DNA of 64,000 nucleotides from Naegleria gruberi (lineage: Eukaryota), in assembly GCA_000004985.1 (NCBI GenBank), contig GG738851.1; one strand, given 5' to 3'. Shown piece by piece: positions 6,833-63,940 of this stretch. Numbering within the stretch: the first letter of the stretch is position 1; each line of letters begins with the position of its first letter. Both the position numbers and the translations under genes were made by a program. A model generated the notes under the pieces. It worked only from the letters and a program-made list of their open reading frames with translations, was not told where the DNA came from and ran no database searches.

Positions 6833-6913
6833 CGCAGACTGCAGGATTCGAACCTACGAAGGTTTCCCCAACAGATTTCAAGTCTGTCGCCTTAACCACT
6901 CGGCCAAGTCTGC
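6833..6913 (-). tRNA. tRNA-Ser (anticodon UGA), class II with a long variable arm
   Basis: Reverse complement is GCAGACTTGGCCGAGTGGTTAAGGCGACAGACTTGAAATCTGTTGGGGAAACCTTCGTAGGTTCGAATCCTGCAGTCTGCG. Acceptor stem is GCAGACT/AGTCTGC. Anticodon loop is CTTGAAA. T-loop is GTTCGAATC. Confidence 0.85.
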
Positions 6914-7197: not shown

Positions 7198-7278
7198 CGC
7201 AGACTGCAGGATTCGAACCTACGAAGGTTTCCCCAACAGATTTCAAGTCTGTCGCCTTAACCACTCGGCCAAGTCTGC
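7198..7278 (-). tRNA. tRNA-Ser (anticodon UGA), second identical copy
   Basis: Identical 81-nt sequence to the copy at 6833-6913. About 20 nt of flank (caaaatttcacacgc) is also shared. Confidence 0.85.
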
Positions 7279-18059: not shown

Positions 18060-20280
18060 TTTACTTATATAAGAACATACAGAGCTATCGTTATTGAAAA
18101 TGCCAAAACCATTGATTGTCGGCATTCTTAGTATTATTGGTATTCGTTTTCTACCAAACTGAAGTAGGAAACACAGTGTTCAACTGTAAACCCACCAATG
18201 AATATCTTATCTGGTACGGATTAAAAACAGTAGAACAGAAGCATTCTCAAAACATTTCCAAACAATAAGCTTGTTTCATACGATACACTGGAGTCTTCAT
18301 TACTCTGTAAACTTGGCTTCTGTTTTGGCAGTAATTACGTTACGGTCTGTATTTTGAAAGTTAATTGATAAATACATAACTTGGTTTGTTAGTATTTTTT
18401 GAAGCATCAAAGAACAAGAACACCAAGTTTAACTTTTTGTTTTTGATAGTTGTGTATTATCTCTACCTGCGTGGGATGTGTTGGTCTCATGTGGTGTATT
18501 TCATTTTTGCGTCTAAAACACAAAACGTGCCACTAGCACCGTAATCGAGTAATAAGTCTTATGTCCAATTTATTTTGGAGCAAATACTTTAAGTACTTGT
18601 GTTGAACAGATGATAGAGCTTAGGTTAACTACAAATACAGTAAAAGGCATCATACTTGGTAAGTATATATACTGGCACATGCTTTACTTGGATTCGATCA
18701 CAATGTTAAGTGTTATTACTAACCTAAGTGGTTATCAGTGTAACAATCCGAAACGCGTTCGACAAAGATTAAAAATGAACCATGTGATAGTAATGATGCA
18801 TATTTGAAGCTCATCTAATATTTGATGTTTCTTGAAAAGAGAATATTGTTTACTACGTCTTTAATATTTTAGTATAACTATATTTTATCATGTTTGTTCA
18901 TCGGTATATCTAATCACCAAACCGTACAGTTACTATCTAGTACTATATTGTATCAGCCACGTAACATAGTATTGGGGTTTTTAGATACGTGTTACTTGTT
19001 TTTCAGATTTCTTTTAGTTATTATTCCAATTTGCTTTCTCTCATTTTTTTGCTCTGACTTCTGTTCGATATCTTTTTCTGTTTCATTAAGCGTACACCAA
19101 AGATTGATTTCTTGAAAGGTTAACAAAAAGTCACGTTGATTCCATGCAGATGAATAAAAGTTATGAGTACGGTCAGTTTCGATCTGACGACCAGGATACT
19201 GTGTATCTAGACATGATCTTTTTTTTAGACACACTTCAAGAGCCTCCTTGCTCTCCCTCTGAGCTACATACTCAAAGCATTAAGTAAGAATTAGAATATT
19301 GAGAATGAATGAATTATTTGTGTGCAGTTTTATTTTGGTATTTTTTATAAAATCTAATTTTTGAGTTCAGTGCATGTTCTTTATTCTACAATCATTTACA
19401 ATAATCTGTTTAGTTGATTGACATGGTAAGTAATTTATTAATTATTCGATCTTTCAACAAGCACGTGAGTTATTCAAGTAGCAAATCAAGGATTCAAATT
19501 GGATCTGTCATTCAAATAATTAAGAATTCTTTTTAAATTTTAATAACATCTTGATGTAAGTTTAAGATATTTTCCAATTTGTTGAATTGGCAACAGTGAG
19601 AACTGTAGAATTGATGACCTGTCGTTTTGAATTGAAGCCATTGAGAAATTGTAATGTCTTAATGTCTGCTTGCTGCCCAACTCCAGTCAATCTTGTAGGT
19701 GTGAATTATTTATTGCCTAATTAAATCAGAAGATACCTCAAGACGGAAGGTAAAATGTGAGAAAGTACGGTTCACACTTCGGTAGCAATAACATTGAAAG
19801 ATAGTAACAATTGTAAAAGTAAGGCAAATCATTCCTTTCTTTATCCAAAACAAAAATCATCATACATGAAATAAATTAATGATAAAATATCACATGTTGA
19901 CAATTGTAAATATTATTGTAAAAGGTGTTTCAACTCTGTTAATATCAAATCAATTTAGTATTGTTACCAAACCTACTTTGGAAAATTAAAATAGAAGTCA
20001 AGATAAAAATGAACAAGTTTCCAATTTTTATTTTATTTCTCTCCTTCCAAAATGATAGTCATCATTATCACTTTGAATTTTTTAAAGAAGATTATCCACT
20101 TTGAAGATTCTCAACCTACCTCTAACATCCTAATCATCAAATGATTACTTGATCATCATCATTAGCTAGCTTACACATTGTCATCATCTCTTCACCCGAC
20201 TACTGCATTTTAAATAATTGAAGAAAATACAACAAATCAAAAAAAAAATCACAACACATTTAAAGCTGCTTCAAGTTTTA
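18060..20280. other. Intermediate-GC (~35-40%) non-coding island with no long ORF on either strand
   Basis: Composition departs visibly from the flanking ~85-90% AT intergenic DNA (e.g. gtggtgtatttcatttttgcgtctaaaacacaaaacgtgccactagcaccgtaatcgag). Only ORFs of 80 aa or less in all six frames. Confidence 0.5.
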
Positions 20281-25698: not shown

Positions 25699-25772
25699 TG
25701 CCTCCCTTGGGAATCGAACCCAAGACCTCTGTCTTACTAGGACAGCGCTACTGCCAACTGAGCTAGGAAGGC
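25699..25772 (-). tRNA. tRNA-Thr (anticodon AGU)
   Basis: Reverse complement is GCCTTCCTAGCTCAGTTGGCAGTAGCGCTGTCCTAGTAAGACAGAGGTCTTGGGTTCGATTCCCAAGGGAGGC(A). Acceptor GCCTTCC/GGGAGGC. Anticodon stem CTGTC/GACAG with loop CTAGTAA. T-arm CTTGG-GTTCGATTC-CCAAG. The D-stem has one mismatch. Confidence 0.7.
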
Positions 25773-27845: not shown

Positions 27846-28492
27846 TTAGTTATCGAAGGATGGAGCACGGTAAGTAGATGGATCTCTTCTTGGGTGAGTA
27901 TCTTGGATACCTCTAACTTGTTGTTCTGGAACAACCTTTGTGATAGAGTTATAACGAGCTTCATACCATTTTCTGTGTTTAGCAAGACAAGTAGTCCACT
28001 TGTAGAAGTGCTTGTTACATTGAGACCATTGCAACATGGTGGCGTTACTCTTACCGAGAGCTAATCATCACGATCACGAAAATTAATTATTATTTTGTAT
28101 TTTTCATCATACTTACTTTCATCAGCACAGTCATCCAAGAACATGTTCAAGACGTGAGCCTTGCAAGGAGCAGCTGGTGCCATGTGTAAAACAGCCTTGA
28201 ATTGAGATGGATCGTTTCTCAAGATTTCTTGTTCGTCCTTTGTGATTTCGAAATCCTTTGAGTCCAAAGGCTTGCCGAAGATGTCCAAAATTTGTTCATT
28301 TGAAAGGTATCCTTCCTTTGTTCTATTCAAGATATCAGCGTTTGGAACGTTGGTTCTATCACTTGGTAACTTAGCATCCTTAGTCTTGGTCAAAGGGTGA
28401 TAGAATGATTGTTCAGTGAAGTAACCAGCTTCGTTCAATTCCTTTCCTAAGTTGTTGAGGAGGGTTTGTTTAACAGTGGACATTTTTTGCAA
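27846..28492 (-). CDS. Small CHCH-domain (twin Cx9-11C) protein, probably a mitochondrial IMS/respiratory-complex accessory subunit; 2 exons
   Basis: Exon 1 (28492..~28128) ends ..DDCADE at a GTAAGTATG donor. A ~65-nt intron ends at ..GATTAG (~28062). Exon 2 continues TLGKSNATMLQWSQCNKHFYKWTTCLAKHRKWYEARY. The two motifs C-x11-C and C-x9-C form a CHCH fold. Confidence 0.6.
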
Positions 28493-42611: not shown

Positions 42612-45108
42612 AATGAGCAGCAGCACCACTAGTAAGGGAACAACTAAAAGGTTTTCTTCTACAAGCAGCCAGAAGGCTTCTTCAGGAGCATTGGCAACAG
42701 CTGGTAGTGGTGCAAGACCAGGCTCTCAACAAGTGGGAAGTTCAAAGAAGAGAATTCCTTCATCATCTGGTAGTACAAGCTCAACTAAAAGTAAGAGGAA
42801 ATTATCTAGTGGTTCAACTCCTTCCAGGGATAATAAAACACAAAATTATTCCTTCTCAGATCAGGGAATGTATAGTACAGTCTCCCTTAAAAACGAGAAG
42901 GCTGTACTATTAAATGATGAGGAAATGATTAGCGAGTTTGAAAAACAAAAAAGAAGGTAAGGATTTGCATTGATGAGCAATGAGCTTATATATATGAAAA
43001 GATTGGAACGATTGGCTTTTGTGATGAAGTTACCTTTCATTGATGTAGAATACTTTTTTAATGCATACGGAAGTGAATACAATATATATAATCTTCATCA
43101 ACTTTCAATGGTTGTAGACCTTTTGGAAAATCACAAGTTAAAAACAATACAAGTAACGGAAGCCATTTGGGAAAGAGAGGATGTTCTTGACAAGCTTCAT
43201 TGTCTTGTTGAGGAATATAATGCTGTAAAGGATTCAAATCCTGGTTTAATTCTTGTAGCACAAAAGGAAGCACTCATACTGCAAAAAGATATTCAGAAAA
43301 AGGGGTTGAAGATTGTTGAACTAATTGACAAGTGGAGGAAAGACCTTAGTCTTGATTATCCTTTTAGGTTTATGGAATATACTAATTATCTTATCAAAAT
43401 GAGATATGATTTGGAATTTGTTGATAATAGCGACCTCTCTCATTACATTTTCCCTTTCAGAGGTCATCCATTACTTGCAAATGTTCCAAGTCTGTATTAT
43501 GAAAATATTGAAAAGTTGTTAGAGGTTCCTGATAAGAAGAATCCATCACTTTCAGCAACTGTAACATATCCACTCACTAAAAAGAAGTTAAAACTTGCTG
43601 ATAAGGCAATGAATGCAGAAAGAAAGTTAAACAAGTACGAGGCTATTATTTTGAGAGAGGAAGATAATGAAAGGACGATCAAACAATTCTTATTTACTCT
43701 CATCAAAAAAGGAAAATTTATTACAGTACTGAATGTTTCAGAAGGAGAATTTGAACTCACTCCTGAACAGCAGCAAAAGATTAAGGGAATTTTCAACCAG
43801 AGCCCAGAATATGTCATTTCCTATTTCAATCTTCATGCAAGAGTAAATCTTGAACCTCAATTTCCAGAGAAGAAACCAGAGCCATCGACACCTAAATCAT
43901 CAGAAAAAACAATCCAAAACGATGTTGTTATAATAGGGAGTGTCATTGCTCCAACTCCTAAAGCAGTTTCAAATGGCCAAGTTTTCCTTACAGAGGAGGA
44001 AGATGATGAGCTAGATGATGAGAACAGACTCGGAATTAACAATGAAAAGGGGTATGCATCCGACATTACAGACGATATTGAATTTGAAATTATTGAAAAG
44101 AAACAGGATCAAAATAATTCTAAAAATTATGATGGATCAGGGGAAGAAACAGAAGAAGAAAATGCTTACAAGAAACAAACTGTCTTGAAAGAATATCATA
44201 CTGAATTGGAAGCAACTCACCAACATCATGAACCATTGGAAAATCAAAATCCTTTATCTCTTAATGATTCACTCGATGAAAAGAAATTCCAAAACCCATA
44301 CCAACATGATGAAAATCGAGATGAAGAAGAGGAAGAAAACGAAGAAGAGGAAAGGGAGGAAAACACATTTGGATACTCCAATCCTTACGAGGATGAGGAA
44401 CCACACAAATACCAACATGAAGGAGAGGTTCATGAAGGAGATAAGCGTGATGAAGAAGGTAATGATTTTTCGCGTGTTTATGGTCTAGATAACATTGAGG
44501 CACCGAACGAAAATCATACAAATGAAGATCTCAACATTGTGGATAATGTACATTTGGAAACAGAATATCCTGAGAATCATGAAGTTGTTCATGCTACATC
44601 CGTGGAAACTCCAATACTTGGTGATATAATGGAACCAAATCTAGAGGTTTGTCCTCCTTCCCCTAAATACCATGAAGAACCAACCCAAATTCATGATGAA
44701 TTATCTCACAAAGAACCTGAAAACCATTCGACGGTTCCTCCATTGTCAACTAATCTTGAAGAACCATCAAATGAAACTGCCGAGGATTCATATAATGTAA
44801 ATTCATTCGAAACACCAAGAGATTTTGATAACTTTTCCAATCCTTACGGGGATGAGGAAGATTCGCAAAAACAGAGCTCTGGATCAATTCATCTCAGTAC
44901 ACCTGTTTTAAAGGGTGATTTACATATAGGTACACCCCTTATGCAGGCCAATATTCATTTTGGAGATCCATTAGTAGTAGCTGCTGGTAGCTCTAAAGAT
45001 AAGGATAGTAAGAAATCAAAACACAAACGAAGTGGGTCGAATTCTAGCAGTAGTAGTAGTAGTTCTGGATCCGATTTCTCAGATTTTGGATCTGATTTTT
45101 CTGATTAA
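42612..45108 (+). CDS. Hypothetical protein with Ser-rich N-terminus and acidic C-terminal region; 2 exons
   Basis: Exon 1 (MSSSTTSKG... to ..EFEKQKR) ends at a GTAAGG donor (~42957). A ~45-nt intron ends at ..TGAAAAG (~43001). Exon 2 is LERLAFVMKLPF... through the SSSSSS C-terminus. This region is noticeably less AT-rich than its neighbours. Confidence 0.55.
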
Positions 45109-45423
45109 ATAAACAATGCAATCATTCTCATGAATAAGGTGGAATTGTTCTTTTAATAATCAACCGTTCCTTTTTATTCCCCAATTGATTGAATGCTTTT
45201 TGCTTGTAGTCTTGTTGCCATAAAGGTAGAATTACAAAGAATGAACAAGTTCAAACAATTTGCGGCAAGAAACAAAGTAGGAACAACACATCAAAAAAGT
45301 TCCTGTTGAACTATTTTCTAAAAATACTTGAATTGTTATTTTACAGTTAAATAGTTGAAGATTGAAAAATCTTTTTTCAATGGAAATTCAAACAAAACAA
45401 CAAGAAAAAACAACTTAACAATC

Positions 45424-45885
45424 ATGCAATTATTCGTCAAGACACTCACTGGTAAAACCATCACATTGGAAGTTGAATCTAATGATTCAATTGAAAATGT
45501 TAAAAGAAAGGTTCAAGATAAGGAAGGAATTCCACCAGAACAACAAAGACTCATCTATGCCGGTAAACAATTGGAAGATGGCAGAACTATTAATGATTAT
45601 AACATTCAAAAAGACTCCACACTTCATTTGGTATTGAGATTGCGAGGAGGAATGCAACTTTTTGTAAAAACATTGACAGGAAACACAATTACTATTGAAA
45701 TGGAATCAAATGATACTGTTGAGAATATGAAACAAAAGATATTTGATAAGGAAGGTATCCCTTCAGATCAACAACGATTGATTTATGCAGGAAAACAATT
45801 GGAAGATGGAAGAACTATTAGTGATTACAATCTTCAAAAGGATTCAACTGTGCATTTAGTATTGAGATTAAGAGGAGGTTGTTAA
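45424..45885 (+). CDS. Divergent di-ubiquitin (two ubiquitin-like repeats, C-terminal GG followed by an extra Cys)
   Basis: Repeat 1 is [76 protein letters not shown], about 10 substitutions from ubiquitin. Repeat 2 is more divergent (K11N, I44?, etc.). The ORF-track start at 45355 is probably UTR. Confidence 0.8.
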
Positions 45886-49752: not shown

Positions 49753-50058
49753 AGTTGTAAGATTTGATAGTGTTAAATCACTTCGAATATTTGTAATACA
49801 AGAAATATTTAAATCTACCCAAACTCTCTTTTTCACTCAGTCAAATATCATTAACGGTCCAATTTACCTCTATCACCTAAATAATGAACAGGTCAATTTC
49901 ATATTAACTTGTTTGCAACCTGGAGCATCAACTCAATTATATTTGGATTTGCAAAGTTCCAAGATTATTTTTTTGTAAAGAGTTCATTTAACGTTGTTGG
50001 GAGTGAACAATCAGAACTACATTATTAAAATATTAATCTACATGAGAAACACAAACTA

Positions 50059-50355
50059 ATGAATAAAAGGTTTAGCATTGCGATGAGAAAATTAAACAAT
50101 AACAAGAATAAAAAAAGAATGCAAATACAAGTGAGAACTCTCTCAGGTGGTGCTACCAAGTTTGATGTAGAAGTTTCCGATAAGCTCATCTATTTGAAGA
50201 AGCTTATTCAGGAAAAGATTGGAGTTACCATTCCACAACAAAGATTAGTTATGAATGGAAAAATTCTTCCTGATGATTCATCTGTGAATGATGTAGGATT
50301 GAAGAGTGGTGATATAATTCAACTCATTCTCCAATTGAAAGGAGGTTCTTTGTAA
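50059..50355 (+). CDS. Small ubiquitin-like domain protein ending ..LKGGSL
   Basis: Core MQIQVRTLSGGATKFDVEVSDKLIYLKKLIQEKIGVTIPQQRLVMNGKILPDDSSVNDVGLKSGDIIQLILQLKGG has a beta-grasp ubiquitin pattern. The likely true start is the ATG at ~50119. Confidence 0.6.
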   Translation: MNKRFSIAMRKLNNNKNKKRMQIQVRTLSGGATKFDVEVSDKLIYLKKLIQEKIGVTIPQQRLVMNGKILPDDSSVNDVGLKSGDIIQLILQLKGGSL

Positions 50356-50913: not shown

Positions 50914-52157
50914 TTAATTTATGAAAGAGATATCTGAAAAGTTTTGGATTCTTTCTTTCAAATTATTGATGAAATAGTCGAGGCCTTTGGTGGATTTTAG
51001 CTTTCTAATTTCAATGAGGTATAGTTCAGTATTTTCAAGAATTAAGAGGGTGTCCTCATTGATTTCACAAATGAACTTGGCATCCAATTTTTCAAATGTT
51101 GATTCTAGTTTTTTCGGTACCTTATATTTGATGCGTTCTCCTTCTTCTTCGTCGTATTCATAAATAGTTGTTCCCCCATTGTAATACAGTATGAGGAAAT
51201 TATTATAGTTTGGAATACCTCTGTATTTACCTCTCAAAGTAATGCACCTTGAATGGAAAGTATGTCCATCTGAGTGAATCAAATTTCTAACTGAATTTTC
51301 CCACTTGTTTCTATTAAAATCAAAGTGATACATATCAGTAACGTATTTGGACATAGTATAACCACCAAATATTGTCAAATAATCCTTAGAAGCGTCAGTA
51401 TTCAGAGAAAGAACTGTCAAGGATGGAATATCATGTGAATAGTTCAAAAGTTGCCATTCATTAGTTTCCAAATCCAACTCATAAAAATCCTTCAAATAAT
51501 CTCCATGATATCCTCCAAAAACATAGAACTTTCCTCTAGAAGGAGCATAACAACCAGAACATCCACACCTAGGTGTAGGAGCAGTTCCTGTTGTTTCAAT
51601 TTCAGTCCATTCCCTAGAAGCCAAATCAAATTTCCAAAAATCATTCAAATATGTATTTCCAAATCCTCCAAACAAGTAGACACATTGATTTTGTTTATCA
51701 TAGGACAAACAAGGAAATTCTCTTGCTGGTGGCCTTTCATCAACTCTTATTTCCTCCCATTTCAGTTGTAATGTATTTTCAGTGTCCAAGTCATTTGTTG
51801 ACAAGTCACGTAGTTGTCTATCAGTAAATGATGAAATAATATTAGAAAGTTTCAAAAATTGAACATGCTCTAAAAAATCACCACCTCCCGAAATTGATCC
51901 TGAATATATATAATCATTATAGAAATAATATTAATCAATTTAAATTCATGTGATTATTATTTAAACAAACCTCCGAAAACAAACAATGTTGGACAATGTG
52001 TTAATACATTTTCAGATCCAAGAAAAACAGGATGATAATTATCTTGTACTATTAAATTGTGTTGAAAGGAGGAATACCATGTTGTTTCAAACAATTTTTC
52101 TTTTGGGGATGGTTTAGTAATGCTGGTAGCAATTTTCTTGTTCTTTTTCCTTCCCAT
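50914..52157 (-). CDS. Kelch-repeat protein; 2 exons
   Basis: Exon 1 (52157..~51970) ends ..PTLFVFGG at a GTTTGT donor. A ~67-nt intron follows. Exon 2 continues SISGGGDF.. and carries Kelch motifs (YLFGGFGNTYLNDFWKFD, FYVFGGYHGDYLKDFYELD, LTIFGGYT). Confidence 0.7.
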
Positions 52158-52518: not shown

Positions 52519-53199
52519 TTAAAAGTATTGATCTTCCCACAATTTAATTGTAGAAATTTCCTCATAATAATCATAAAATTCTGAAAACCTTGATAAATGT
52601 CTTTCCCAATGTCTCTCATAGAACGTTTCGTGGTTTGCTATTTTGTGTCCCTCTGCATTCACTTCATAATATGAAGTTTCAACCTTTGCCTCCTTTCCTT
52701 GATTACTGATATTGAGAATTCTCTCAGTGTAATCTCTTATATCCAACATTGAATAAATTGAAGGACCTCTCTTAATGGACTTGCTTACATTTTGACTAAC
52801 ATTTACAAATACTGAATATTCATTATTGAGTGGTTCTTTTTTCTGAGCTATTACCAAATAAATGTAAATAAAATCAAGATACTCATTAGTGTTTCCTCCA
52901 AATTGAAGAGAAAAAACAGAATAGTTTGAATATGTGTTTGTGTCCTCTAATGAAAACCCTCTAGTATTGAGGGCTTTTGTAAAATTAATGAGATAACTTG
53001 CATGAAAACTATTTCCTGAATAAGGTGTGATTGATGGACTTGTTGCAACATGACCTGTTCGTACATAATGAATGATTCCATGATTAGAGACTAAATATAA
53101 ACAATCTGGAGTTGTTATGACAACTAGATCCATACCAACATGTTCCCATCCAGGAACAGAAAGAGAGCCTTCACAGTTATGAGTCGTATTAGTCATCAT
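52519..53199 (-). CDS. Hypothetical protein (226 aa); may be the C-terminal part of the upstream F-box gene
   Basis: ORF whose ATG overlaps the stop of the upstream ORF (TAATG). Confidence 0.45.
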   Translation of the reverse strand: MMTNTTHNCEGSLSVPGWEHVGMDLVVITTPDCLYLVSNHGIIHYVRTGHVATSPSITPYSGNSFHASYLINFTKALNTRGFSLEDTNTYSNYSVFSLQFGGNTNEYLDFIYIYLVIAQKKEPLNNEYSVFVNVSQNVSKSIKRGPSIYSMLDIRDYTERILNISNQGKEAKVETSYYEVNAEGHKIANHETFYERHWERHLSRFSEFYDYYEEISTIKLWEDQYF

Positions 53200-54047
53200 T
53201 AGACACTGTTCTTTGACAAGAATTCTCCTTTAAGATTATCACATACAAGGTATTTCTTCAAGTTGAAACCACCTGTAGTATACGCACAAAGAACATATAG
53301 ACAATAAATGTTAACATCTGGTTGTTTTGGATCAATATTCAACATTTTTCTATGTTCTGAACTCATTAATGGATGAAATGTGAGAGCCATGCTTGAAATT
53401 CTCACATTCTCTCCAATCCTGAACTCTTTCAATAAACACTCATTGTCAACTGAGGAATAGAAAGATATTGAGGAATTTTTTGTATCAGAAACTGCAACCA
53501 AAAATTGGCAACATGAAGCAATGGAACCTTGAAACATTTTTGGAATTGAATTGGCTTGAGATAACTTTCTAATTGCCATATGAGGATTTCGATTAGAAGC
53601 CACCAATGGACAATAACAACCCAATGTCATGTATCTCTTCTTGAATAATTTAGTACTAACAACCTTCTTTTTATGTTTCAATACTTTTCCAATAATTTCT
53701 CCACTCGAAAACAATTCACATTCAAATTGATTGTAAAGATTATAATAAGGAGCAGTTCCCATCCATTCAGAATATTGACCTGACAAATCCAAAACTTCTG
53801 CCATCCTATTCATATAAACAATCTTATCAACTATTTTGCAAAATGATGAATTATGAAGAGGTTGCAAATTCCTATTCCACTTTTTATCGGAGCTTTCTGC
53901 AAAGAATGTTCGATACCAATCTCTGCAGACGCGAGAACAAGATCCGTACAGTGTTTTTAGATCATCAATGTGATAGAAAATTATGAGAAGAGCGTATGGG
54001 TCAAGTTGAAGTGTTGTTGACATTTTTTTAAAGTTATTAAAGTTCAT
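53199..54047 (-). CDS. F-box-like domain protein
   Basis: N-terminus LDPYALLIIFYHIDDLKTLYGSCSRVCRDWYRTF (F-box-like). Confidence 0.5.
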   Translation of the reverse strand: MNFNNFKKMSTTLQLDPYALLIIFYHIDDLKTLYGSCSRVCRDWYRTFFAESSDKKWNRNLQPLHNSSFCKIVDKIVYMNRMAEVLDLSGQYSEWMGTAPYYNLYNQFECELFSSGEIIGKVLKHKKKVVSTKLFKKRYMTLGCYCPLVASNRNPHMAIRKLSQANSIPKMFQGSIASCCQFLVAVSDTKNSSISFYSSVDNECLLKEFRIGENVRISSMALTFHPLMSSEHRKMLNIDPKQPDVNIYCLYVLCAYTTGGFNLKKYLVCDNLKGEFLSKNSV

Positions 54048-54774: not shown

Positions 54775-57700
54775 ATGCTCAAGTCCCAACTCTTAAAATC
54801 TGCCGGCAAGAATTCAACATCAGTCGCCAAGCAAGTATTTTCTGCCAAGTCGAAGAAGCAAACTGCTCAATTGATGCAAGGTTTGAACTCACAAAGAAAC
54901 TTGAGCAGTTCTTTTGTTACAAAGTCAACCCCATCCGACAGTTTTGCTTGGGTTGGTTCTAATTCTCAATATCTGGAAGAACTCGAACTTCAATGGAGAG
55001 CAAATCCATCAAGCGTACCAGTTGAATGGCAAACATATTTTGCTTCCCTTCCAGAAGTAGGATCATCAAGTGCTACTTTCCAAAGTGAATCATCTGGTTC
55101 CTCTAGCTTAAGTAGTCAAGCAGGTGCTCAAGGAGAAATTATTTCTCTCATTAGAGCCTTCCAAGTTTTTGGTCATCACGTAAGCAAATTAGACCCTTTG
55201 GGAAAGTATTCCGCTGATCTTGACTTCCAAGATATTCCTCAATTGGTTTGTATTTTGTTATTTAATTTAATAATTAATTTAAATAATTAAATTCATAACA
55301 ATAATTTAATGATGATGAAAATTTAACAATGGAATAATAGCATATTGAAAATTACCCACACCTCTGCAAGATGGACCCAAATACCCCAATTACTCTCTCC
55401 CAAGATTTGATCAAGGGTTTCCTCTCTTCATCAAATCCTCCACAAAATACACAATGGACATTAAAAACTTTGTTGGATAGACTCCAAGAAACATATTGCG
55501 GAACTATCGGATATGAATACATGCATATTAACAATAGAGATGTTTGCAATTGGTTAAGAGAAAGAATTGAAACAGCAACCAATGTAGATTTAACAGAAAA
55601 CGAAAAGAAAGTACTTTACGAAAGATTGACTTACAGTCATATGTTTGAAGATTATTTGGCAAACAAATTCCCAACAACAAAGAGATTTGGTTTGGAAGGT
55701 TGTGAATCATTGATTCCAGGTCTTAAGAGTATGATTGATACATCATCATCATTGGGTGTTGACAGTTTTGTTGTTGGTATGCCTCACAGAGGTCGTTTGA
55801 ATGTTTTGGCCAACGTTATGAGAAAGCCATTGGCTCAAATTTTCAGAGAATTCTTAGGAAAGACTGAAAACAAGTTGGGTTCCGGAGATGTTAAATATCA
55901 CTTGGGTACCTCAACAAAGCGTCACCTTCCTTTCACAAATAAGGAAGTTGAACTTTCACTTGTTCCTAATCCATCCCATCTTGAAGCTGTTAACCCAGTT
56001 GTTGAAGGAAAAGTTAAAGCTAAGCAAGTTCTTATGGGTGACAATAATAGAGAAAAAGTTTTACCAGTCTTACTTCACGGTGATGCTGCTTTTGCTGGAC
56101 AAGGTGTTATTTATGAAACTATGGGATTGAGTCAATTGGATGAATATGGAACTGGTGGTACTATTCACGTTGTTGTCAACAACCAAATCGGTTTCACTAC
56201 CAATCCAAGAAGTTCTAGATCTACTTCTTACTGTACAGATATCGCTAAATTCCTTAATGCTCCAGTTTTCCACGTCAATGCTGATGATCCAAATGCTGTT
56301 GTCAAGGTCTGTAAATTGGCTGCTGAATATAGACAACAATATCACGGAGATGTTGTCATTGATATTGTCTGTTATCGTAAGAGAGGTCACAATGAATTGG
56401 ATGAACCAATGTTCACTCAACCTCTCATGTATCAAGCTATTGCTAAACAAGAACCAGTTATTAGCAAGTATCGTAAACAACTTTTGAAGGAAGGCATTGT
56501 CAATGAAGAACACCTCAAGCAAGTTGACGAACAAGTTAAGAATGTTTTCGATGTTGAATTTGCTAGAGCTAAGACCGATGAAAAGTTGGATGTTACTGGT
56601 GAAGTTTGGTATTTGCAAGGAAGTAAGTGGGATAGAATGAAGACTCCACACGATTACTCTCCAATCAGATCTACTGGTATTCCAATGGAAGTTTTGAAGA
56701 CTCTTGGTAAACAAGTTTCTACTCTTCCAGAAAATGATAACTTTAAGCCACACAAGGGTATTGCTCGTGTCTATAATCAAAGATCTCAAATGATTGAATC
56801 TGGTGAAGGTTTGGATTGGGGTATGGGTGAAACTCTTGCTTATGCTACACTTTTGAATGAAGGTTATCATGTCAGAATCAGTGGTCAAGATGTTGAAAGA
56901 GGTACTTTCTCACACAGACATGCTGTTGTCACTGATCAAGAATCTGAAAAGAGATACATTCCACTCAAGACTATCTCAAATACTGCTCAATTTACTGTTG
57001 CTAACTCTAGTTTGAGTGAATTTGGTGTTCTTGGTTTCGAATACGGTTATTCTATGGAATCACCAAATCAACTCGTTATTTGGGAAGGTCAATTCGGTGA
57101 CTTTGCTAACGGTGCTTCAATTATCGTTGATCAATTCATTTCTTGTGCTGAACAAAAGTGGATGAGATCATCTGGTCTCACTCTTCTCCTTCCTCATGGT
57201 TATGAAGGTCAAGGTCCAGAACACAGTAACGCCAGAATGGAACGTTATTTGCAACTCTGTGACGAAGATGATGAAACTCTCCCAGAAAAGGATTCAAGCA
57301 AGACTCTCCAAATTCAAAAAGCTAACATGCAAGTTGTCAATTGTACCACCCCAGCCAATTTCTTCCACGTTTTGAGAAGACAATTGCACCGTGATTTCAG
57401 AAAGCCATTGGTTGTTTTCACACCTAAGAGTTTGCTCAGATTGAAGGAAGCTGCTTCATCCTTGTCTGAATTTGCTGCTGGTACTTCATTCAAGCAAGTT
57501 ATTGATGATGAAACTGGTGCCATCACTGATCCAAAGAAGGTCAAGAGAGTTGTTTTCTGTTCTGGTAAGGTTTATTATGATCTCCTCAGTGCTAGAACTA
57601 CACAAAATGTTGCTCTTGTTCGTGTTGAACAATTGGCTCCTTTCCCATTCCATAGAGTTATTGAAATCGCTGAAAAGTATCCAAATGCTGAATATGTTTG

Positions 57701-57902: not shown

Positions 57903-58215
57903 TTGATTTGTTGAGAAAATGATTAAATAACAATTTTAACAATTTTAATAATTTTTGAAGAAATCATGTAGCACTGTTCCACTTCCTTAGTCGTGACCTG
58001 GAATTATGGAACTGAGCTAAGTACCTATGTTTCCTCTCTCTTTATAACTTGATTCCTGAAAAATGTTAACGAATACTACTAGAAGTTAATGGTGTTTTAT
58101 TGAGGTGAAGAGAATAATGTTTTTACTTGAAATTAGGAAAACTTTTTACTAACAGTTACACAATTAGAAAATATTTTTAATACAAATTACATATACAAAT
58201 ATTAATTACATAAAA

Positions 58216-59729
58216 TTATTTAGAAAAGTCAAAATCATCAAAAGACTTGTTTTCATCCTTGCTAACACCAATAGCAAAACTGTCGTGAGCACGTTCGGAA
58301 GTAAATTCTGTGTCAACATATTTGGTATCGTTACCATCATGCAATTGTGGTTTGAATGGAGCAGAAATACCCTTACTATAGAGGTTATCCCAGTTAATAT
58401 TCTTAAAGAATGGATGTGCTCGGATTTCAGCTCCATCTGATGGGCCACCTCCTAAACGTTTATATTCTTCTCTGTCTAATAAACCTTTAAGAAGAGATTG
58501 TGCATCAGCTGGAACACTACTTGGGAATTTGAGTGGGGCCTTCAAAATTAATTCATACATTTCATTAATATTTTCAGAGTAGAATGGTGGCAAACCAACA
58601 ATCATTTCATACAAGAGAATACCGAGAGACCACCAATCGACAGCCTTACCGTGTCCTTGTCCCTTCAAGATTTCTGGAGCTAAATATTCAGGAGTACTAT
58701 TAATGTTAAAAATGTTTAAAATCATTTCAATCAACATACCCACAGAATGTATAAGTTGGAGTATTATTTCCCATAGATGTCTTGGCCAATCCAAAATCTG
58801 TTAAAACAGCATAACCATCACCATCAAGAACAACATTTTCAGGCTTCAAATCTCTGTAAATAATATCATTCTTGTGCAAATGTTCAATAGCCATAACAAT
58901 TTGAGCAGCATAGAATTTAGCACGTTCAACATCAAATTTAGTTTCTTCTCTCAAGTGGAAGAATAATTCACCACCTGGTAAATAATCTAATACTAAATAC
59001 AACTTTTCTTCAGTTTGGAAAGCATAATGCAAAGAAACAATGAATGGGTGATCAATACTTTGCAAAATTTTCTTTTCAGCAAGGGTATGTGACACCATGT
59101 TTTCCTTGATGATCATATCCTTTCTAAGAACTTTCATGGCATAGACTCTAGAAGCACCCTTTTGTTTAACCTTCATAACTTTACCGAATGAACCTCTTCC
59201 GACAACTAACCAAATAATTAAAAAACAAAGCTTTGTGTTTTTACATACCTGTAAGTAATTCAAAATCGTTCAAGGAAACCTTAACATCTGACGATTTGTT
59301 ACCAATAGTAATTTGTTCCAAAGATTTAGCCTTAAGAATTTCCTCCTTGAATTCTTCCAATCCTTCCTTATCAGATGATGGATTATAATTCATAGCTTTG
59401 TTCAATTCTTTCATCCAAACTTGGAACTCTGTTTCATTTTCCGCACTAATTTCATAAACTCTGGCCAAGTTTTTACCTCTAAGTTTAAAGCTCATAGGCT
59501 TTGTTTCATCAATTTCAACTTTAGCTCCTTGGATATTGATAAAACCTGTTGGCTTGAGCTCACCTTGTTTCTTGAAGTAGAAAAGAAGCTTTCCTCTCAA
59601 TTCAAACCATCTTCCTGTTATCATCATGGTGATCAATATTATTAAATTAAAATTTTAATACTTACTCTTGTAGGTTTTAATTTTACCTCCCTTCTTCTTT
59701 AAATATCCAGAGAAGTCTGGCTTTTCCAT
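58216..59729 (-). CDS. Akt/PKB-like AGC protein kinase with N-terminal PH domain; 4 exons
   Basis: Exon 1 ~59729-59666 (MEKPDFSGYLKKKGGKIKTYK). Intron ~51 nt (GTAAGT). Exon 2 ~59614-59249 (RWFELRGK.. PH domain). Intron 43 nt (GTATGT..GGTTAG). Exon 3 ~59205-58740 (VVGRGSFGKV..YRDLKPENV..TDFGLAK..TFCG). Intron 43 nt (GTATGT..TTAATAG). Exon 4 ~58696-58216 (TPEYLAPE..FPHF-like..FDDFDFSK, AGC C-terminal hydrophobic motif). Exon lengths sum to 459 codons. Confidence 0.85.
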
Positions 59730-60408
59730 AGGATTAACCTGTGTATACAAAATAGATCAATGATTTTGTTGTTTCCGTAAATAAAACCTCTCTTTTCCCT
59801 TGTCTACATACCTCCATTTTATTCTTCTTGTTGTTGTATAAATTGCTGTGGGGAGCAATACGAAATTTTTTTACAAAGTGCTGTGATGGTGATCTCTCTC
59901 TGAGCAACCTTCTTGAATACGTTGGACATCTCTGCTGAGGATGAGCATTTTTGGAAAAGAGTACCTTTAATACGAACAATGAAGGGTTGTAAAGGGATGT
60001 CATACACTTGCAACCAGACATCTTGCAAACTACAATTATTATTACATTGCCATTGATTGTTGTTGATTATCAAATGTTTTAAATTTGCCTTTCATTGTAT
60101 TATCCTTCAAGTTAGTTTGGAATTTTGTGTTTGAGGGAAGATACAAGCTGAGATAATTATAAATCTCTAAGGGCGATTGTTCATAATAAGGATATATTTG
60201 AACAAATAGACTCATATGTGGAGTTATGATTAAGGCAATGCAGTTGGAGGGTGCTCTTTATTCTGGAAGATTCAATCTCTAACTGCTGCTTGCTAAAGAG
60301 AAAAAATAGGAGAGTTTTTTATTAAGGCAAACAATAGACCTTGAATTCGCTCTCATGAACAATTGGTGTTTCGCATTAAGGGTGTTACTTCCCTCTCATG
60401 TGGAATAA

Positions 60409-61701
60409 TTAGACGGTTTTATAAGGATCAAATTCGATCGAGGTATTGGAGTTTCCGAAATATTGCTTGCTGTGGCTTTCAATCATTTTGGAAAGCATTT
60501 TGACACTGCCCATGATACCGGACTTGCTTATTGGTTGTAAGAAACTTTCATTATTCAAAATTCTTTCGGTTTGATACGAGTCGTCCTTCTTAAAAACTGG
60601 CAATGTTTCAATTTCCTCACTTTTCTCATGAACTTTTTTGGAATAATTGGACATGATAACTGGGAATAAAGACAAAAGTGAGAGGCAAATAAGGAATATG
60701 ATGGTTTTTGGTTGATAAATGTCATTCACACTTTTCAATTCTGAAAGAATTAATCCAGCATGAACAGTTATATAATTAAATGGAATCATTCCTATAAATA
60801 CAGAATATGTTTGTTCAGCAGCAGAAATACCAAGAACAGGTCCAGCAATATTTACAAACCAGTTTGGTGTCAGTGGAAATAATCTTAATGAAATTAAAAA
60901 CCAAACCATTTTAAAACCTCCTAGTTTTCTATTCCTATTCATTAAGGAAGATAGTTTTGAAATTTTTGTTCTGAACCATTCGAAACTCAATAGAAAATCC
61001 TTTCCACTAAAATACCACAATACATGACAAAGAACAGCTCCAATAGTATTTAAAACTGTGCAAATAAATGTTCCATAAAAAGTTCCCATCAAAGCACCAG
61101 ATATTATATTCAAAAATATTGTTCTGAATAGAAATACATATTTGTTAAATATGATGGAAATAAATTAGTAAAAATTAGCACACTTTCCACTTACCCTGGT
61201 ACACAACAAATTTGATTCTTTTGAAGGATCATTCCTAATATTTCATTATTAATTACTTACAAATAAATATAAACAACAAAAAAGGCAGAATAATTCAAAC
61301 GAATGCTTGTCAGCTTCCTCACTCTTGAGTATTTCATAATCCTTCTTAAGATCATCCAAAGTCCATACCATTTTAATATTTAGTTTTGAATGGAGTGGAA
61401 TATAAAAGTATAATACAAAACATAAATTCAAAATTGACACTAGTGGTATTAATAATAATCTCCGATAAGACTTTTTGTATTGTTTTGATGAAGAAATAAT
61501 TTCCTCCTCATCAAAATTGTTCTCCCTATGATTCATTGATGAATAATTTAGTGTCGGAACAAAATCTGTTGTTGTTAATTTATCATGGTGTAGCCTCTGA
61601 TTATTGTTGGTATTATTAAATTCTTCTTCCGATCCTCCTACCACATAATTATTGATTCGATGTGTTGTTGTCGTAGTATTCAAAGATGTTGGAAATTTCA
61701 T
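60409..61701 (-). CDS. TMEM41/Tvp38/DedA-family membrane protein; 3 exons including a 23-nt microexon
   Basis: Exon 1 (61701..~61261) ends ..CCLYLF at a GTAAGT donor. A 43-nt intron follows. Microexon ~61193-61217 (aatcaaatttgttgtgtaccagg = NQICCVPG) is followed by a GTAAGT donor and a ~69-nt intron. Exon 3 (~61123..60409) reads TIFLNIISGALMGTF...LRLFPLTPNWFVNIAGPVLGI. Joined, this gives LYLF-NQICCVPG-TIFLNIISGALMG, aligning with human TMEM41B [25 protein letters not shown]. Confidence 0.8.
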
Positions 61702-62174: not shown

Positions 62175-63940
62175 ATGGATCCAATTAGCCAAGAAACTCA
62201 AGCAGAGATTTCTTCGGATGCTGTTGCTACTGATAATGTTACTATAAATGAGGAGCAGCCTCAACTTGTAGTGAGTGTTCCACCAACAATAACAATCAGT
62301 ACAGAGAATAACGATGTTGAGGTTATTAGTAACAACAATGAGCAAGGAAGCGTACCGAGTTCTCCAACGCTACTAGTAGAAGTCTCATCTTCGTCAAACA
62401 CTCCAACAATTTCAACTTCTGATGCTATGAACGTTTTGGTTGCAACTTCCACAGGCAACATGGCCTCAATTGCATCATCAATGACGAGACAACTAACAGA
62501 GAAAAGTATAGGTAAGATTTTTATTGAATTTGAAATCCTTAATCTTCTTTATCAGAGGAAGATTCAAATGAAGCAACTTGTGTGGATATGGAAACATCTA
62601 CATTCGTTGATGATTATTCATCTGGCGATGAAGATGATCAAAACAAAAAGAAAAAGAAAGATGATCCTAAAAAGTTTAACCTTGACGGAATTAATACAAT
62701 GAAAGGAATCATAATGGAAGAATGGAAAAAGTTTGGTTTTGCTGCTCAAACAAAACGAGATGCTGAAATGTGGGCACAAACACTTCAATTTCCTGGAGTT
62801 CCCGAAAGAGGAGAGGTTCTTAGAAGATTATTTTCTGTGTTTAGATGGGGTGGATTGTGTTTTAGACATAAGGCAATTGCATTTGATAAAAAGAAGAGTG
62901 ATGACGATTCAGATTTTGTTTGGAAAAATTGGTATGATGTTGGATGGCCTATTTGTACAGCTATTTCTCATGGTGGTAGAGTAATTATTCAATTACCTAA
63001 GAAAACAGGATCCGACAGAACATATGATTATTCATTTTGGAATTGGATCATTACAGGATCTAAAACAGGGGATGTTGCAAAGCATGTGACAACAGGAACA
63101 TCTGGAGACCATTGTATAAAGCGAGGAAAGATAATATTCAAGAGATTGAGTGCTACGCATGGTATTGATTTTGAAGAAAATGAGTTACCTCTCATGGATG
63201 GAACAAGGAAGGTATTAATTGAACAAAAAACCACAGGTTTCAGTTTGAGAGACACCAAAATGTTAAGATCAGTTGAATATACATTGAAACATCACAGACA
63301 TTGGGGAATGAATATTCCAATTGGTGGTGAAGGGCAAACCTTACTTACAGGAAGTAAATCTTATGCAAATGGATCCAATGGCCATTTATACATTTATCAC
63401 ATGGCACCAAAAACTGACTCTTATGGTGGTATTATGCTTGGGTTAGAAGGAAGCGAATATGGTAAATATGATATGTGTGGTGAATACCACGGTGTGAGTG
63501 CCAAGTCAAGTGCATTCTCACCCACACTCGGTTTCAAATGGCATTCCAAGGAACATCTAGATTTGACAACAGTGAAAGGCCCAGGTAAATATGATTGTAT
63601 GTTTGTGGATTTGTCATATGGTTGGGATTTTATTGTTGAAAAGTATGAAAACGAATGGAAGGATGATATGGTCAAGCAAACATCATTACCTAATCCAAAC
63701 CATCCACAGTTTACAGAAATTTCAACAAAACTCAATCTTTCTCCAAAATTTATTTCATCCATTGTAAATTTGAGAAACACTGAGAGAGGAAGAAAATGGA
63801 AATCACTTGTAGACAAACGATTAGAAAAGACAAGTAATAATTTTAAGGACAAAATTACAATATCAAAGAAGAAAACCAAGTTTTACAATTTTACAACAAC
63901 CCGAGCAGCAATCTCCTTCGCCAATTTATACGGGCAATAA
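62175..63940 (+). CDS. Protein with Ser/Thr-rich N-terminus and a ~400-aa C-terminal domain of unknown family (possible toxin/enzyme-like fold); 2 exons
   Basis: Exon 1 (62175..~62510, ..TEKSI) ends at a GTAAGA donor. A ~50-nt intron ends TTTATCAG (~62561). Exon 2 is EEDSNEATCVDMETSTFVDDY... through the stop at 63940. The C-terminal domain is Gly/His/Trp/Cys-rich (..WYDVGWPICTAISHGGRVIIQLP.., ..HRHWGMNIPIGGEGQ.., ..HMAPKTDSYGGIMLGLEGSEYGKYDMCGEYHG..). Confidence 0.55.

What the first reader, a model, noticed from the sequence alone, without database searches (positions are those of the whole stretch)
58216..61701. Recurring class of ultra-short 43-46-nt introns, plus a 23-nt microexon in the TMEM41/Tvp38 gene
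Four independent genes here need introns of 43, 43, 43 and ~45 nt to keep conserved domains in frame. The Akt-like kinase has two of them (GTATGT...AG). The TMEM41 gene has one (GTAAGT...AAAAG). The acidic-tail gene at ~42957-43001 has one. A few tens of nucleotides is short even for an intron-poor, AT-rich genome. In the TMEM41 gene, the conserved KQTFAIPG loop of the DedA fold is encoded by a stand-alone 23-nt microexon (NQICCVPG) flanked by GTAAGT donors. An ORF-only annotation would miss this exon and truncate or fuse the protein. A tight intron-length mode near 43 nt may point to a distinct species or a minimal-intron class worth characterising.
Basis: partly seen in the sequence, partly recalled or inferred. 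Interest (0 to 1): 0.5.

Follow-up and report, generated by a model that had tools for sequence, protein, structure and literature searches.

The report
Ordinary short introns, one conserved microexon
The window is Naegleria gruberi DNA; the 43-45-nt interruptions are this amoeba's ordinary short spliceosomal introns, most already in the reference annotation, and the 23-nt exon in the TMEM41-like gene is real and conserved across the genus but matters only for gene annotation.

Summary
All four short introns exist at the stated places (43, 43, 43 and 45 nt, GT...AG), and removing them gives uninterrupted proteins.

The window is Naegleria gruberi NEG-M. My spliced kinase model (introns 73/51/43/43) equals XP_002681209.1 exactly. 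The acidic-tail model (45-nt intron) equals XP_002681069.1. So three of the four introns are already annotated.

The 23-nt exon (61217-61195, minus strand; NQICCVPG) is real:
- Skipping it shifts the frame.
- It is conserved in N. lovaniensis and two metagenomic Naegleria, while the flanking introns diverge.
- It aligns to the near-invariant KQTFAIPG motif in 151 family members.

The "special class / distinct species" reading is not supported. Fourteen modelled introns in the window span 41-132 nt (median 53.5), with a pile-up at the 41-45 floor. This is a normal minimal-intron distribution. Willaertia magna has 38-46-nt introns at the same or nearby sites. The short introns share no sequence.

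One possibly new point: I could not retrieve any N. gruberi protein for the TMEM41-like locus, so the reference proteome may lack this gene. ORF-only callers do split it in two. Interest is low.

The parts
58216..59817 (-). PH-domain AGC (Akt-like) kinase gene with five coding exons. The spliced product is 463 aa and equals XP_002681209.1 (N. gruberi NEG-M).
   Evidence: Exact sequence look-up. Pfam PH 64.9 bits and Pkinase 239 bits, both full-length. Orthologues: N. lovaniensis 88%, Willaertia 75% identity.
59206..59248 (-). Kinase intron 3: 43 nt, GTATGT...GGTTAG, phase 1, between ...FELLT and VVGRGSFG.
   Evidence: The same site carries a 115-nt intron in N. lovaniensis, 134 nt in L003 and 39 nt in Willaertia. 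It is part of the RefSeq model.
58697..58739 (-). Kinase intron 4: 43 nt, GTATGT...TTAATAG, phase 2, inside TFCG|TPEYLAPE.
   Evidence: N. lovaniensis and L003 have no intron here and read straight through the same peptide. Willaertia has a 45-nt intron 8 nt downstream. It is part of the RefSeq model.
59615..59665 (-). Kinase intron 2: 51 nt, GTAAGT...ATAACAG.
   Evidence: The same site carries 202 nt in N. lovaniensis, 218 nt in L003 and 45 nt in Willaertia.
59739..59811 (-). Kinase intron 1: 73 nt, GTATGT...ACACAG. It follows a first coding exon of only ATGGAG.
   Evidence: It is required for the exact match to XP_002681209.1. A two-codon first exon is also implied by the Willaertia and N. 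lovaniensis models.
60409..61701 (-). TMEM41/Tvp38-type (VTT domain) membrane protein gene with three exons. The spliced product is 392 aa.
   Evidence: Pfam VTT_dom 35.6 bits (cut-off 33.9), residues 153-278. Orthologues: N. lovaniensis 54%, Willaertia 50% identity. The neighbouring kinase gene is conserved in three other loci.
61218..61260 (-). TMEM41-like intron 1: 43 nt, GTAAGT...TCAAAAG, phase 0.
   Evidence: Read-through hits TAA after three codons. The same site carries 43 nt in L004, 45 nt in L003, 50 nt in N. lovaniensis and 45 nt in Willaertia.
61195..61217 (-). 23-nt microexon AATCAAATTTGTTGTGTACCAGG. It encodes N-Q-I-C-C-V-P plus the first two bases of G.
   Evidence: Omitting it shifts the frame. 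16 of 23 columns are invariant across five taxa, against splice-site bases only in the flanking introns. It aligns to KQTFAIPG in 151 homologues. The annotated N. lovaniensis and Willaertia proteins contain the peptide.
61124..61194 (-). TMEM41-like intron 2: 71 nt, GTAAGT...CTATTCAG, phase 2.
   Evidence: The same site carries 40 nt in L004, 49 nt in L003 and 62 nt in N. lovaniensis. In Willaertia the intron (38 nt) lies 22 nt further downstream, which gives a 45-nt exon.
42957..43001 (+). 45-nt intron (GTAAGG...GAAAAG, phase 2) in the acidic-tail gene (CDS 42614-45108).
   Evidence: The spliced 816-aa product equals XP_002681069.1 / NAEGRDRAFT_63605 at 100% identity and coverage.
62512..62555 (+). 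44-nt intron (GTAAGA...TTTATCAG) in the Ntox11-domain gene (CDS 62175-63940). This is a further member of the same short-length group.
   Evidence: The spliced 573-aa product equals XP_002681073.1. Pfam Ntox11 E = 5e-36. Homology to L003 and L001 reaches within one codon of the acceptor.

Best explanation
**What it is.** The window is nuclear DNA of Naegleria gruberi NEG-M. The 43-45-nt segments are ordinary U2-type GT-AG spliceosomal introns that sit at the lower end of this genome's intron-length distribution.

**How the short lengths arise (inferred, not shown).** Such short introns are most likely recognised as whole units (intron definition). Their lengths pile up just above the minimum spacing the spliceosome needs between the 5' splice site, the branch site and the 3' splice site.

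**The microexon (sequence evidence shown; splicing itself not observed).** In the TMEM41/Tvp38-type gene, two such introns (43 and 71 nt) lie 23 nt apart. The stretch between them is a constitutive microexon. It supplies the start of the VTT domain, the Q...PG motif. This arrangement is conserved across the genus Naegleria.

**Overall.** None of this is a separate intron class. It is the normal gene architecture of this lineage.
For: **Organism and prior annotation.**
- The spliced acidic-tail protein equals XP_002681069.1 at 100%.
- The spliced kinase (introns 73/51/43/43) equals XP_002681209.1, the 56-nt-intron model equals XP_002681204.1, and the 44-nt-intron model equals XP_002681073.1.
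- A metagenome contig is 99.78% identical to the window.

**Canonical signals.** All 14 modelled introns are GT...AG, with 12-32% G+C. Donors are GTAAGT or GTATGT in 10, GTTTGT in 2, and GTAAGG and GTAAGA in one each.

**Continuous distribution.** Lengths are 41, 43, 43, 43, 44, 45, 51, 56, 56, 71, 71, 73, 95 and 132 nt; the median is 53.5.

**Clade-wide pattern.**
- Willaertia introns in the two orthologous genes are 38, 39, 45, 45, 45 and about 43 nt.
- The Willaertia P4-ATPase gene call leaves 46 nt of non-coding sequence (coordinates).
- The published median for N. lovaniensis is 80 bp (PMC6125883).
- N. fowleri read mapping used a 30-bp minimum intron "based on an assessment of predicted genes" (PMC8296547).

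**Microexon.**

**No shared sequence.** The mean pairwise alignment score among the short introns is -3.0, against -2.7 +/- 0.8 for shuffles.
Against: - I could examine no transcript data, so splicing at the TMEM41-like junctions is inferred from frame, homology and conservation.
- The census covers only 14 introns in 64 kb. One of them, the 41-nt candidate at 53206-53246, rests on joining two ORFs alone.
- The published mean intron length for the N. gruberi annotation is 203 bp (PMC8296547), far above the local mean of 62 nt. Either this window is unrepresentative or the genome-wide mean is pulled up by long, possibly mispredicted, introns.
- Intron definition and a steric length floor are general knowledge about short introns. 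They were not tested here.
Confidence: 0.9

Rival explanations
1. One reading: the ~43-nt introns form a discrete minimal-intron class with its own constraints, or they mark an unusual or undescribed species.
For: Six of 14 local introns fall within 41-45 nt and three are exactly 43 nt. Nothing is shorter than 41 nt in N. gruberi, or than 38 nt in Willaertia, which suggests a sharp floor.
Against: - The species is the sequenced reference strain.
- Lengths run on continuously through 51, 56, 71, 73, 95 and 132 nt.
- The same intron site can be 43 nt in N. gruberi and 115-134 nt in N. lovaniensis and L003, so length is not tied to the site.
- The short introns share no sequence.
- A narrow peak at the short end is the usual shape of intron-length distributions (PMC6157073).
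Confidence: 0.07
2. The 23-nt exon is not used. The locus would then be a pseudogene or two separate small genes, and the apparent motif a coincidence.
For: My 392-aa model and 13 alternative models for this locus are all absent from the protein collection. No N. gruberi protein was returned for this locus.
Against: - The 23 nt are conserved with mostly synonymous or conservative changes in four other taxa, while the flanking introns diverge.
- The peptide fills columns that are occupied in at least 146 of 151 homologues, with near-invariant Q, P and G.
- Both flanking exons score as coding and align to orthologues along their whole length.
- The annotated N. lovaniensis and Willaertia proteins include the peptide.
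Confidence: 0.03
3. The short introns are copies of a mobile intron family (introner-like elements) that spread recently.
For: Similar lengths in several unrelated genes.
Against: - Pairwise similarity among the short introns is no higher than for shuffled sequences.
- The sites are shared with Willaertia and other Naegleria, so the introns are old.
Confidence: 0.01

Closest known systems
Annotated gene models of Naegleria gruberi NEG-M (JGI/RefSeq: XP_002681209.1, XP_002681069.1, XP_002681073.1, XP_002681204.1)
   Same: The exon-intron structures are identical for the kinase (73/51/43/43 nt), the acidic-tail gene (45 nt), the Ntox11-like gene (44 nt) and NAEGRDRAFT_78490 (56 nt).
   Different: I could retrieve no N. 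gruberi protein that matches the TMEM41-like locus. Whether the reference annotation has this gene, with or without the microexon, remains open.
Minimal (short-peak) introns of compact eukaryotic genomes. From my own knowledge, the short peak lies near 45-60 nt in Caenorhabditis elegans, fission yeast and many fungi.
   Same: Canonical GT-AG introns, A+T-rich, with a narrow peak just above a lower length limit and a long right tail. This is the general shape described for more than 1000 genomes in PMC6157073.
   Different: The N. gruberi floor seen here (41-45 nt) is only slightly lower. It is not exceptional, since validated GT-AG introns reach 30 bp (PMC4675715).
Truly tiny intron systems, from my own knowledge: Paramecium (about 20-30 nt), the Bigelowiella nucleomorph (18-21 nt) and Stentor (about 15 nt)
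   Same: A tight length mode and A+T-rich introns.
   Different: Those are two to three times shorter and nearly uniform in length. The Naegleria introns vary from 41 to at least 132 nt within 64 kb.
Conserved coding microexons of animals and plants (exons of about 30 nt or less that encode parts of conserved domains)
   Same: A very short constitutive exon (23 nt) that encodes a conserved domain motif. It is conserved across a genus and is routinely missed by simple gene callers.
   Different: It is flanked by very short introns (43 and 71 nt), not long ones. Nothing indicates regulated inclusion. In Willaertia the exon is 45 nt because the downstream intron sits elsewhere.
Orthologous TMEM41/Tvp38-type genes of N. 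lovaniensis (C9374_004226) and Willaertia magna (ABK040_008210)
   Same: Same gene neighbourhood (the kinase lies next door), same first intron site, and the same NQIxCxPG peptide.
   Different: Intron lengths differ: 50 and 62 nt in N. lovaniensis, 45 and 38 nt in Willaertia. Willaertia's second intron is shifted by 22 nt and the gene has a third intron of about 43 nt. The N. lovaniensis model carries an extra 74-nt 'intron' that appears to compensate for a 1-nt difference.

Membership tests
U2-type GT-AG spliceosomal introns | GT at the 5' end and AG at the 3' end, with a GTRNGT-like donor | tested here: met
   All four introns, and all 14 in the window census, start with GT and end with AG. 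Donors are GTAAGT, GTATGT, GTAAGG, GTAAGA or GTTTGT.
U2-type GT-AG spliceosomal introns | Removal restores one continuous reading frame through conserved protein domains | tested here: met
   Pfam matches are continuous across the junctions for PH, Pkinase, VTT_dom and Kinesin. Several products equal RefSeq proteins exactly.
U2-type GT-AG spliceosomal introns | Intron position shared with orthologues | tested here: met
   Kinase introns 2 and 3 and TMEM41-like intron 1 lie at identical sites in up to four other taxa. Kinase intron 4 and TMEM41-like intron 2 are shifted in Willaertia.
U2-type GT-AG spliceosomal introns | Spliced junctions observed in RNA | not testable with these tools
   No transcript data were available. 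A scan of metagenome contigs for the spliced junction found nothing.
Microexon (coding exon of about 30 nt or less) | An exon of 30 nt or less, bounded by an acceptor and a donor, needed for the frame | tested here: met
   The exon is 23 nt, preceded by ...AAAAG and followed by GTAAGT. Omitting it shifts the frame.
Microexon (coding exon of about 30 nt or less) | Conserved as coding sequence in relatives | tested here: met
   16 of 23 columns are invariant in five taxa, and the flanking introns are unalignable apart from splice sites.
VTT-domain / DedA superfamily (TMEM41, Tvp38, VMP1; Pfam PF09335) | Match to the VTT_dom profile above the curated cut-off | tested here: met
   35.6 bits against a cut-off of 33.9; residues 153-278 match profile positions 1-121 of 123. 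The match begins inside the microexon-encoded VPG.
VTT-domain / DedA superfamily (TMEM41, Tvp38, VMP1; Pfam PF09335) | Conserved [KL]Q[TA]F[AS]IPG motif ahead of the LN..(A/S)G..(F/Y)G stretch | tested here: met
   In N. gruberi the motif is NQICCVPG-TIFLNIISGALMG. The Q, P, G, N and G columns are near-invariant in 151 sequences. That this segment forms a re-entrant loop was not tested; no structure was predicted and no solved homologue exists.
Akt/PKB-like AGC kinase | N-terminal PH domain, then a kinase domain, then an AGC C-terminal tail | tested here: met
   PH at residues 6-96 and Pkinase at 140-396. The tail ends in FDDFDF, an acidic variant of the hydrophobic motif (read from the sequence). 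Orthology to animal Akt specifically was not tested.
Introner-like (mobile) intron family | Sequence similarity among intron copies | tested here: not met
   The mean pairwise score of seven short introns is -3.0, against -2.7 +/- 0.8 for shuffles.

The most novel reading that the evidence does not exclude
The 23-nt microexon may have caused the TMEM41/Tvp38-type gene to be missing or broken in the N. gruberi reference proteome. In addition, Naegleria and Willaertia may show real intron relocation: the sites differ by 22 nt in this gene and by 8 nt in the kinase gene. A lineage-wide length floor of about 38-45 nt would have been relaxed two- to four-fold in the N. lovaniensis lineage. That would make these amoebae a small natural system for studying minimal-intron constraints and intron sliding.
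Probability: 0.3. Interest if true: 0.25.

Novelty: new member of a known kind. Interest (0 to 1): 0.12.

Why it matters
The practical value is for annotation. A conserved membrane-lipid/autophagy-family gene (TMEM41/Tvp38 type) in a model free-living amoeba can only be assembled if a 23-nt exon is recognised. ORF-based calling on metagenomic Naegleria contigs demonstrably splits it into two fragments. Gene finders for heteroloboseans therefore need to allow introns down to about 38 nt and exons down to about 20 nt. Beyond that, the finding reports normal gene structure in a sequenced organism and opens no new biological question.

Tried and rejected
- **Exact look-ups of two single-exon ORFs and of the N. 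gruberi kinase protein in the contig index**. Nothing was on record, so I could not read the reference gene table around the TMEM41-like locus.
- **Fourteen candidate protein models for the TMEM41-like locus**: with the microexon, without it using every plausible in-frame GT..AG alternative, ORF-only versions, and alternative start codons. None is in the collection. The annotation status is therefore undetermined rather than shown to be absent.
- **Scan of metagenome contigs for the spliced microexon/exon-3 junction**. No hits, so no transcript-level support was obtained. A scan for microexon plus donor gave one chance match, L007, which is unrelated.
- **Automatic intron enumeration by ORF joining**. 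It was too noisy on its own. I used it only to nominate junctions, which I then checked one by one. A donor pattern limited to GT[AG] missed the GTTTGT donors in OGDH and the kelch-like gene; these were found by eye.
- **Handing the spliced protein to the all-representatives search**.
- **Solved-structure search for the TMEM41-like protein**. No homologue was found.
- **Published median or mode of N. gruberi intron length.** I found only means: 203 bp for N. gruberi and 126-144 bp for N. fowleri (PMC8296547), plus a median of 80 bp for N. lovaniensis (PMC6125883). The supplement of PMC6142364 did not give the N. gruberi row in the parts I read.
- **Region 18100-20260**. I examined it for a multi-exon gene because it holds several GTAAGT hexamers. 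No convincing coding frames were seen.
Full report
**1. What is in the sequence**

On the minus strand between 58216 and 59817 lies a gene for a PH-domain AGC kinase. Its coding sequence is interrupted four times:

| Kinase intron | Coordinates | Length | Ends |
|---|---|---|---|
| 1 | 59811-59739 | 73 nt | GTATGT..CACAG |
| 2 | 59665-59615 | 51 nt | GTAAGT..AACAG |
| 3 | 59248-59206 | 43 nt | GTATGT..GTTAG |
| 4 | 58739-58697 | 43 nt | GTATGT..AATAG |

Splicing gives an open 458/463-aa protein. It has full-length Pfam PH and Pkinase matches.

Upstream on the same strand, at 60409-61701, lies a VTT-domain (TMEM41/Tvp38-type) gene:
- exon 1: 61701-61261
- intron: 61260-61218 (43 nt)
- exon 2: 61217-61195 (23 nt)
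- intron: 61194-61124 (71 nt)
- exon 3: 61123-60409

The spliced product is 392 aa with no internal stop. Leaving out the 23 nt shifts the frame and produces many stops.

On the plus strand, a 45-nt GTAAGG..AAAAG segment at 42957-43001 joins two ORFs of an acidic, low-complexity protein.

One slip: the four listed introns lie in three genes, not four.

**2. The organism, and what is already annotated**

- The best protein matches for the TMEM41-like gene are Naegleria lovaniensis (54%) and Willaertia magna (50%).
- The spliced acidic-tail protein is 100% identical over all 816 residues to XP_002681069.1 of Naegleria gruberi.
- Exact-sequence look-ups show that my 463-aa kinase model equals XP_002681209.1 (N. 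gruberi strain NEG-M).
- A 193-aa model with a 56-nt intron (28061-28116) equals XP_002681204.1.
- A 573-aa Ntox11-domain model with a 44-nt intron (62512-62555) equals XP_002681073.1.
- A metagenome contig (L005) is 99.78% identical to the kinase region.

So the window is N. gruberi NEG-M. The two 43-nt kinase introns and the 45-nt intron are already part of the public annotation.

**3. The microexon**

Four orthologous loci were recovered: L001 (N. lovaniensis), L002 (Willaertia magna), and L003 and L004 (metagenomic Naegleria). In L001-L003 the TMEM41-like gene is followed by the kinase gene, as in the window. L004 is too short to show this.

- In L001, L003 and L004 the same 23-nt exon is present, bounded by AG and GT. 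The flanking introns are 50/62, 45/49 and 43/40 nt.
- In a five-way DNA alignment, 16 of the 23 exon columns are invariant. In the upstream intron, only 10 of 43 positions are invariant, and 8 of those are the GTAAGT and AG splice signals.
- Willaertia keeps the first intron site, but its second intron lies 22 nt further downstream, so its exon is 45 nt.
- The annotated N. lovaniensis and Willaertia proteins contain NQISCMPG and NQIFCVPG.
- I aligned the N. gruberi product with 150 family members found by an exhaustive profile-free search started from the Willaertia protein. The octapeptide occupies columns with at most 5 gaps in 151 sequences. It lines up with the consensus KQTFAIPG: Q in 141, F in 124, P in 148 and G in 145 of 151.
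- The Pfam VTT_dom match starts at residue 153, inside the microexon-encoded VPG.

The exon is therefore real, required and old within the genus.

On the metagenome contigs, exon 1 and exon 3 were called as two separate ORFs, and the second starts at MGTFYG/MGSFYG.

**4. Is there a special ~43-nt intron class?**

I modelled every intron I could support in the 64-kb window.

| Support | Intron lengths (nt) |
|---|---|
| Exact identity of the product to a RefSeq protein | 73, 51, 43, 43, 56, 44, 45 |
| Cross-species conservation | 43, 71 |
| Uninterrupted Pfam Kinesin match across the junction | 56 |
| Continuity of conserved motifs | 95 (OGDH, GTTTGT donor); 132 (CDP-alcohol phosphatidyltransferase) |
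| ORF joining with a kelch-like FGG motif | 71 (GTTTGT donor) |
| ORF joining only | 41 |

- The sorted lengths are 41, 43, 43, 43, 44, 45, 51, 56, 56, 71, 71, 73, 95 and 132 nt. The median is 53.5 and the mean 62. G+C content is 12-32%.
- This is one continuous, right-skewed distribution with a pile-up at its floor. It does not show two populations.
- The floor is shared with Willaertia, whose introns in the two orthologous genes are 38, 39, 45, 45, 45 and about 43 nt. Its P4-ATPase gene call leaves 46 nt of non-coding sequence (coordinates).
- Length is not a property of the site. Kinase introns 2 and 3 are 51 and 43 nt in N. gruberi, but 202 and 115 nt in N. lovaniensis and 218 and 134 nt in L003.
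- The short introns share no sequence beyond splice sites. That excludes a mobile intron family.
- GTAWGT hexamers are rarer in the window than in shuffles (33 against 51 +/- 7). Ten of the 33 are donors of modelled introns.

Literature context:
- N. lovaniensis introns have a median of 80 bp (PMC6125883).
- The N. fowleri authors set a 30-bp minimum intron "based on an assessment of predicted genes", and report mean intron lengths of 126-144 bp for N. fowleri and 203 bp for N. gruberi (PMC8296547).
- Narrow short-end peaks are the rule across more than 1000 genomes (PMC6157073).
- Validated GT-AG introns go down to 30 bp (PMC4675715).
- From my own knowledge, ciliates and nucleomorphs have introns of 15-30 nt. 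"Ultra-short" therefore overstates 43 nt.

**5. Mechanism**

*Shown:* canonical GT-AG boundaries, frame restoration, domain continuity, conservation of sites, and conservation of the microexon.

*Inferred from general knowledge of splicing:*
- Introns this short are recognised across the intron.
- Lengths accumulate just above the minimum distance needed to fit the 5' splice site, the branch site and the 3' splice site.
- A 23-nt exon is tolerable because each flanking intron is defined on its own, so the exon does not need to be defined across its length.

*Not tested:* branch-site usage (only loose TTAAT/TTAAC-like candidates were seen) and any regulated skipping.

**6. What may be new**

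- No N. gruberi protein was returned for the TMEM41-like locus by the homology search.
- My model and 13 alternatives for this locus are absent from the collection.
- By accession order (D2V466 kinase, D2V468 Ntox11-like), an entry D2V467 probably lies between them. This is an inference.
- So the reference proteome may lack or mis-model this gene. That is at most an annotation fix.

**7. Verdict**

The short introns are already known. The microexon is a new instance of a known kind of feature. Interest is low.

Noticed in passing
window 61124-61194 and 58697-58739; L002 6472-6509 and 8384-8428: Two introns lie at nearby but different sites in Willaertia and Naegleria. The second TMEM41-like intron is 22 nt further downstream (phase 0 instead of phase 2). 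The kinase FCG|TPEY intron is 8 nt further downstream (phase 1 instead of phase 2). N. lovaniensis and L003 lack the kinase intron altogether. Possible causes are intron sliding or independent gain and loss.
   Followed up: partly
L001 6611-6733 (N. lovaniensis PYSW02000020.1): The annotated N. lovaniensis TMEM41-like protein (P0001) lacks about 21 conserved residues. The model removes a 74-nt 'intron' (L001 6659-6732), apparently to bypass a 1-nt difference in a T run (TTTG there, TTTTG in L003). This is probably an assembly or annotation error.
   Followed up: partly
window 59812-59817: The first coding exon of the kinase contributes only ATGGAG (two codons) before a 73-nt intron. The Willaertia and N. 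lovaniensis models also place just two residues before their first intron.
   Followed up: partly
window 55246-55340 and 51900-51970: Two introns use a GTTTGT donor: OGDH (95 nt) and a kelch-like gene (71 nt). In OGDH, a competing in-frame GTAAGC donor at 55180 would delete the conserved VSKLDPLGK... segment. Neither my 1010-aa OGDH model nor the alternative is in the protein collection.
   Followed up: partly
window 52519-54047 (minus strand): Two ORFs abut at 53199. A 41-nt GTATGT...AACAG segment (53246-53206) would join them into a 495-aa protein with no Pfam match. Neither the two ORFs nor the joined model is in the collection, so the true structure is unknown.
   Followed up: partly
window 6833-6913, 7198-7278, 25699-25772 (all minus strand): Two tRNA-Ser(UGA) genes with equal scores lie 365 nt apart, and there is one tRNA-Thr(AGU) gene.
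   Followed up: no
window 18100-20260: About 2.1 kb has no convincing reading frame on the plus strand. Its G+C (about 0.31) is higher than the very A+T-rich spacers nearby, and it holds several GTAAGT hexamers. Its nature is unknown; it could be non-coding RNA, a decayed element or a gene with many small exons.
   Followed up: partly
whole window: The donor-like hexamer GTAWGT is under-represented: 33 occurrences on both strands against 51 +/- 7 in dinucleotide-preserving shuffles. About a third of the occurrences are donors of modelled introns.
   Followed up: no
window 45355-45885 and 50029-50352 (plus strand): One ORF encodes two divergent ubiquitin repeats, each ending in LRLRGG. A separate ORF is ubiquitin-like and ends in LQLKGG.
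   Followed up: no
L005 (ENA ERZ929261, run ERR1078381), 4407 nt: A metagenome contig is 99.78% identical to window 58100-59914. That sample therefore contained N. gruberi or a very close strain. An ORF caller split the kinase there into three fragments at the introns.
   Followed up: partly
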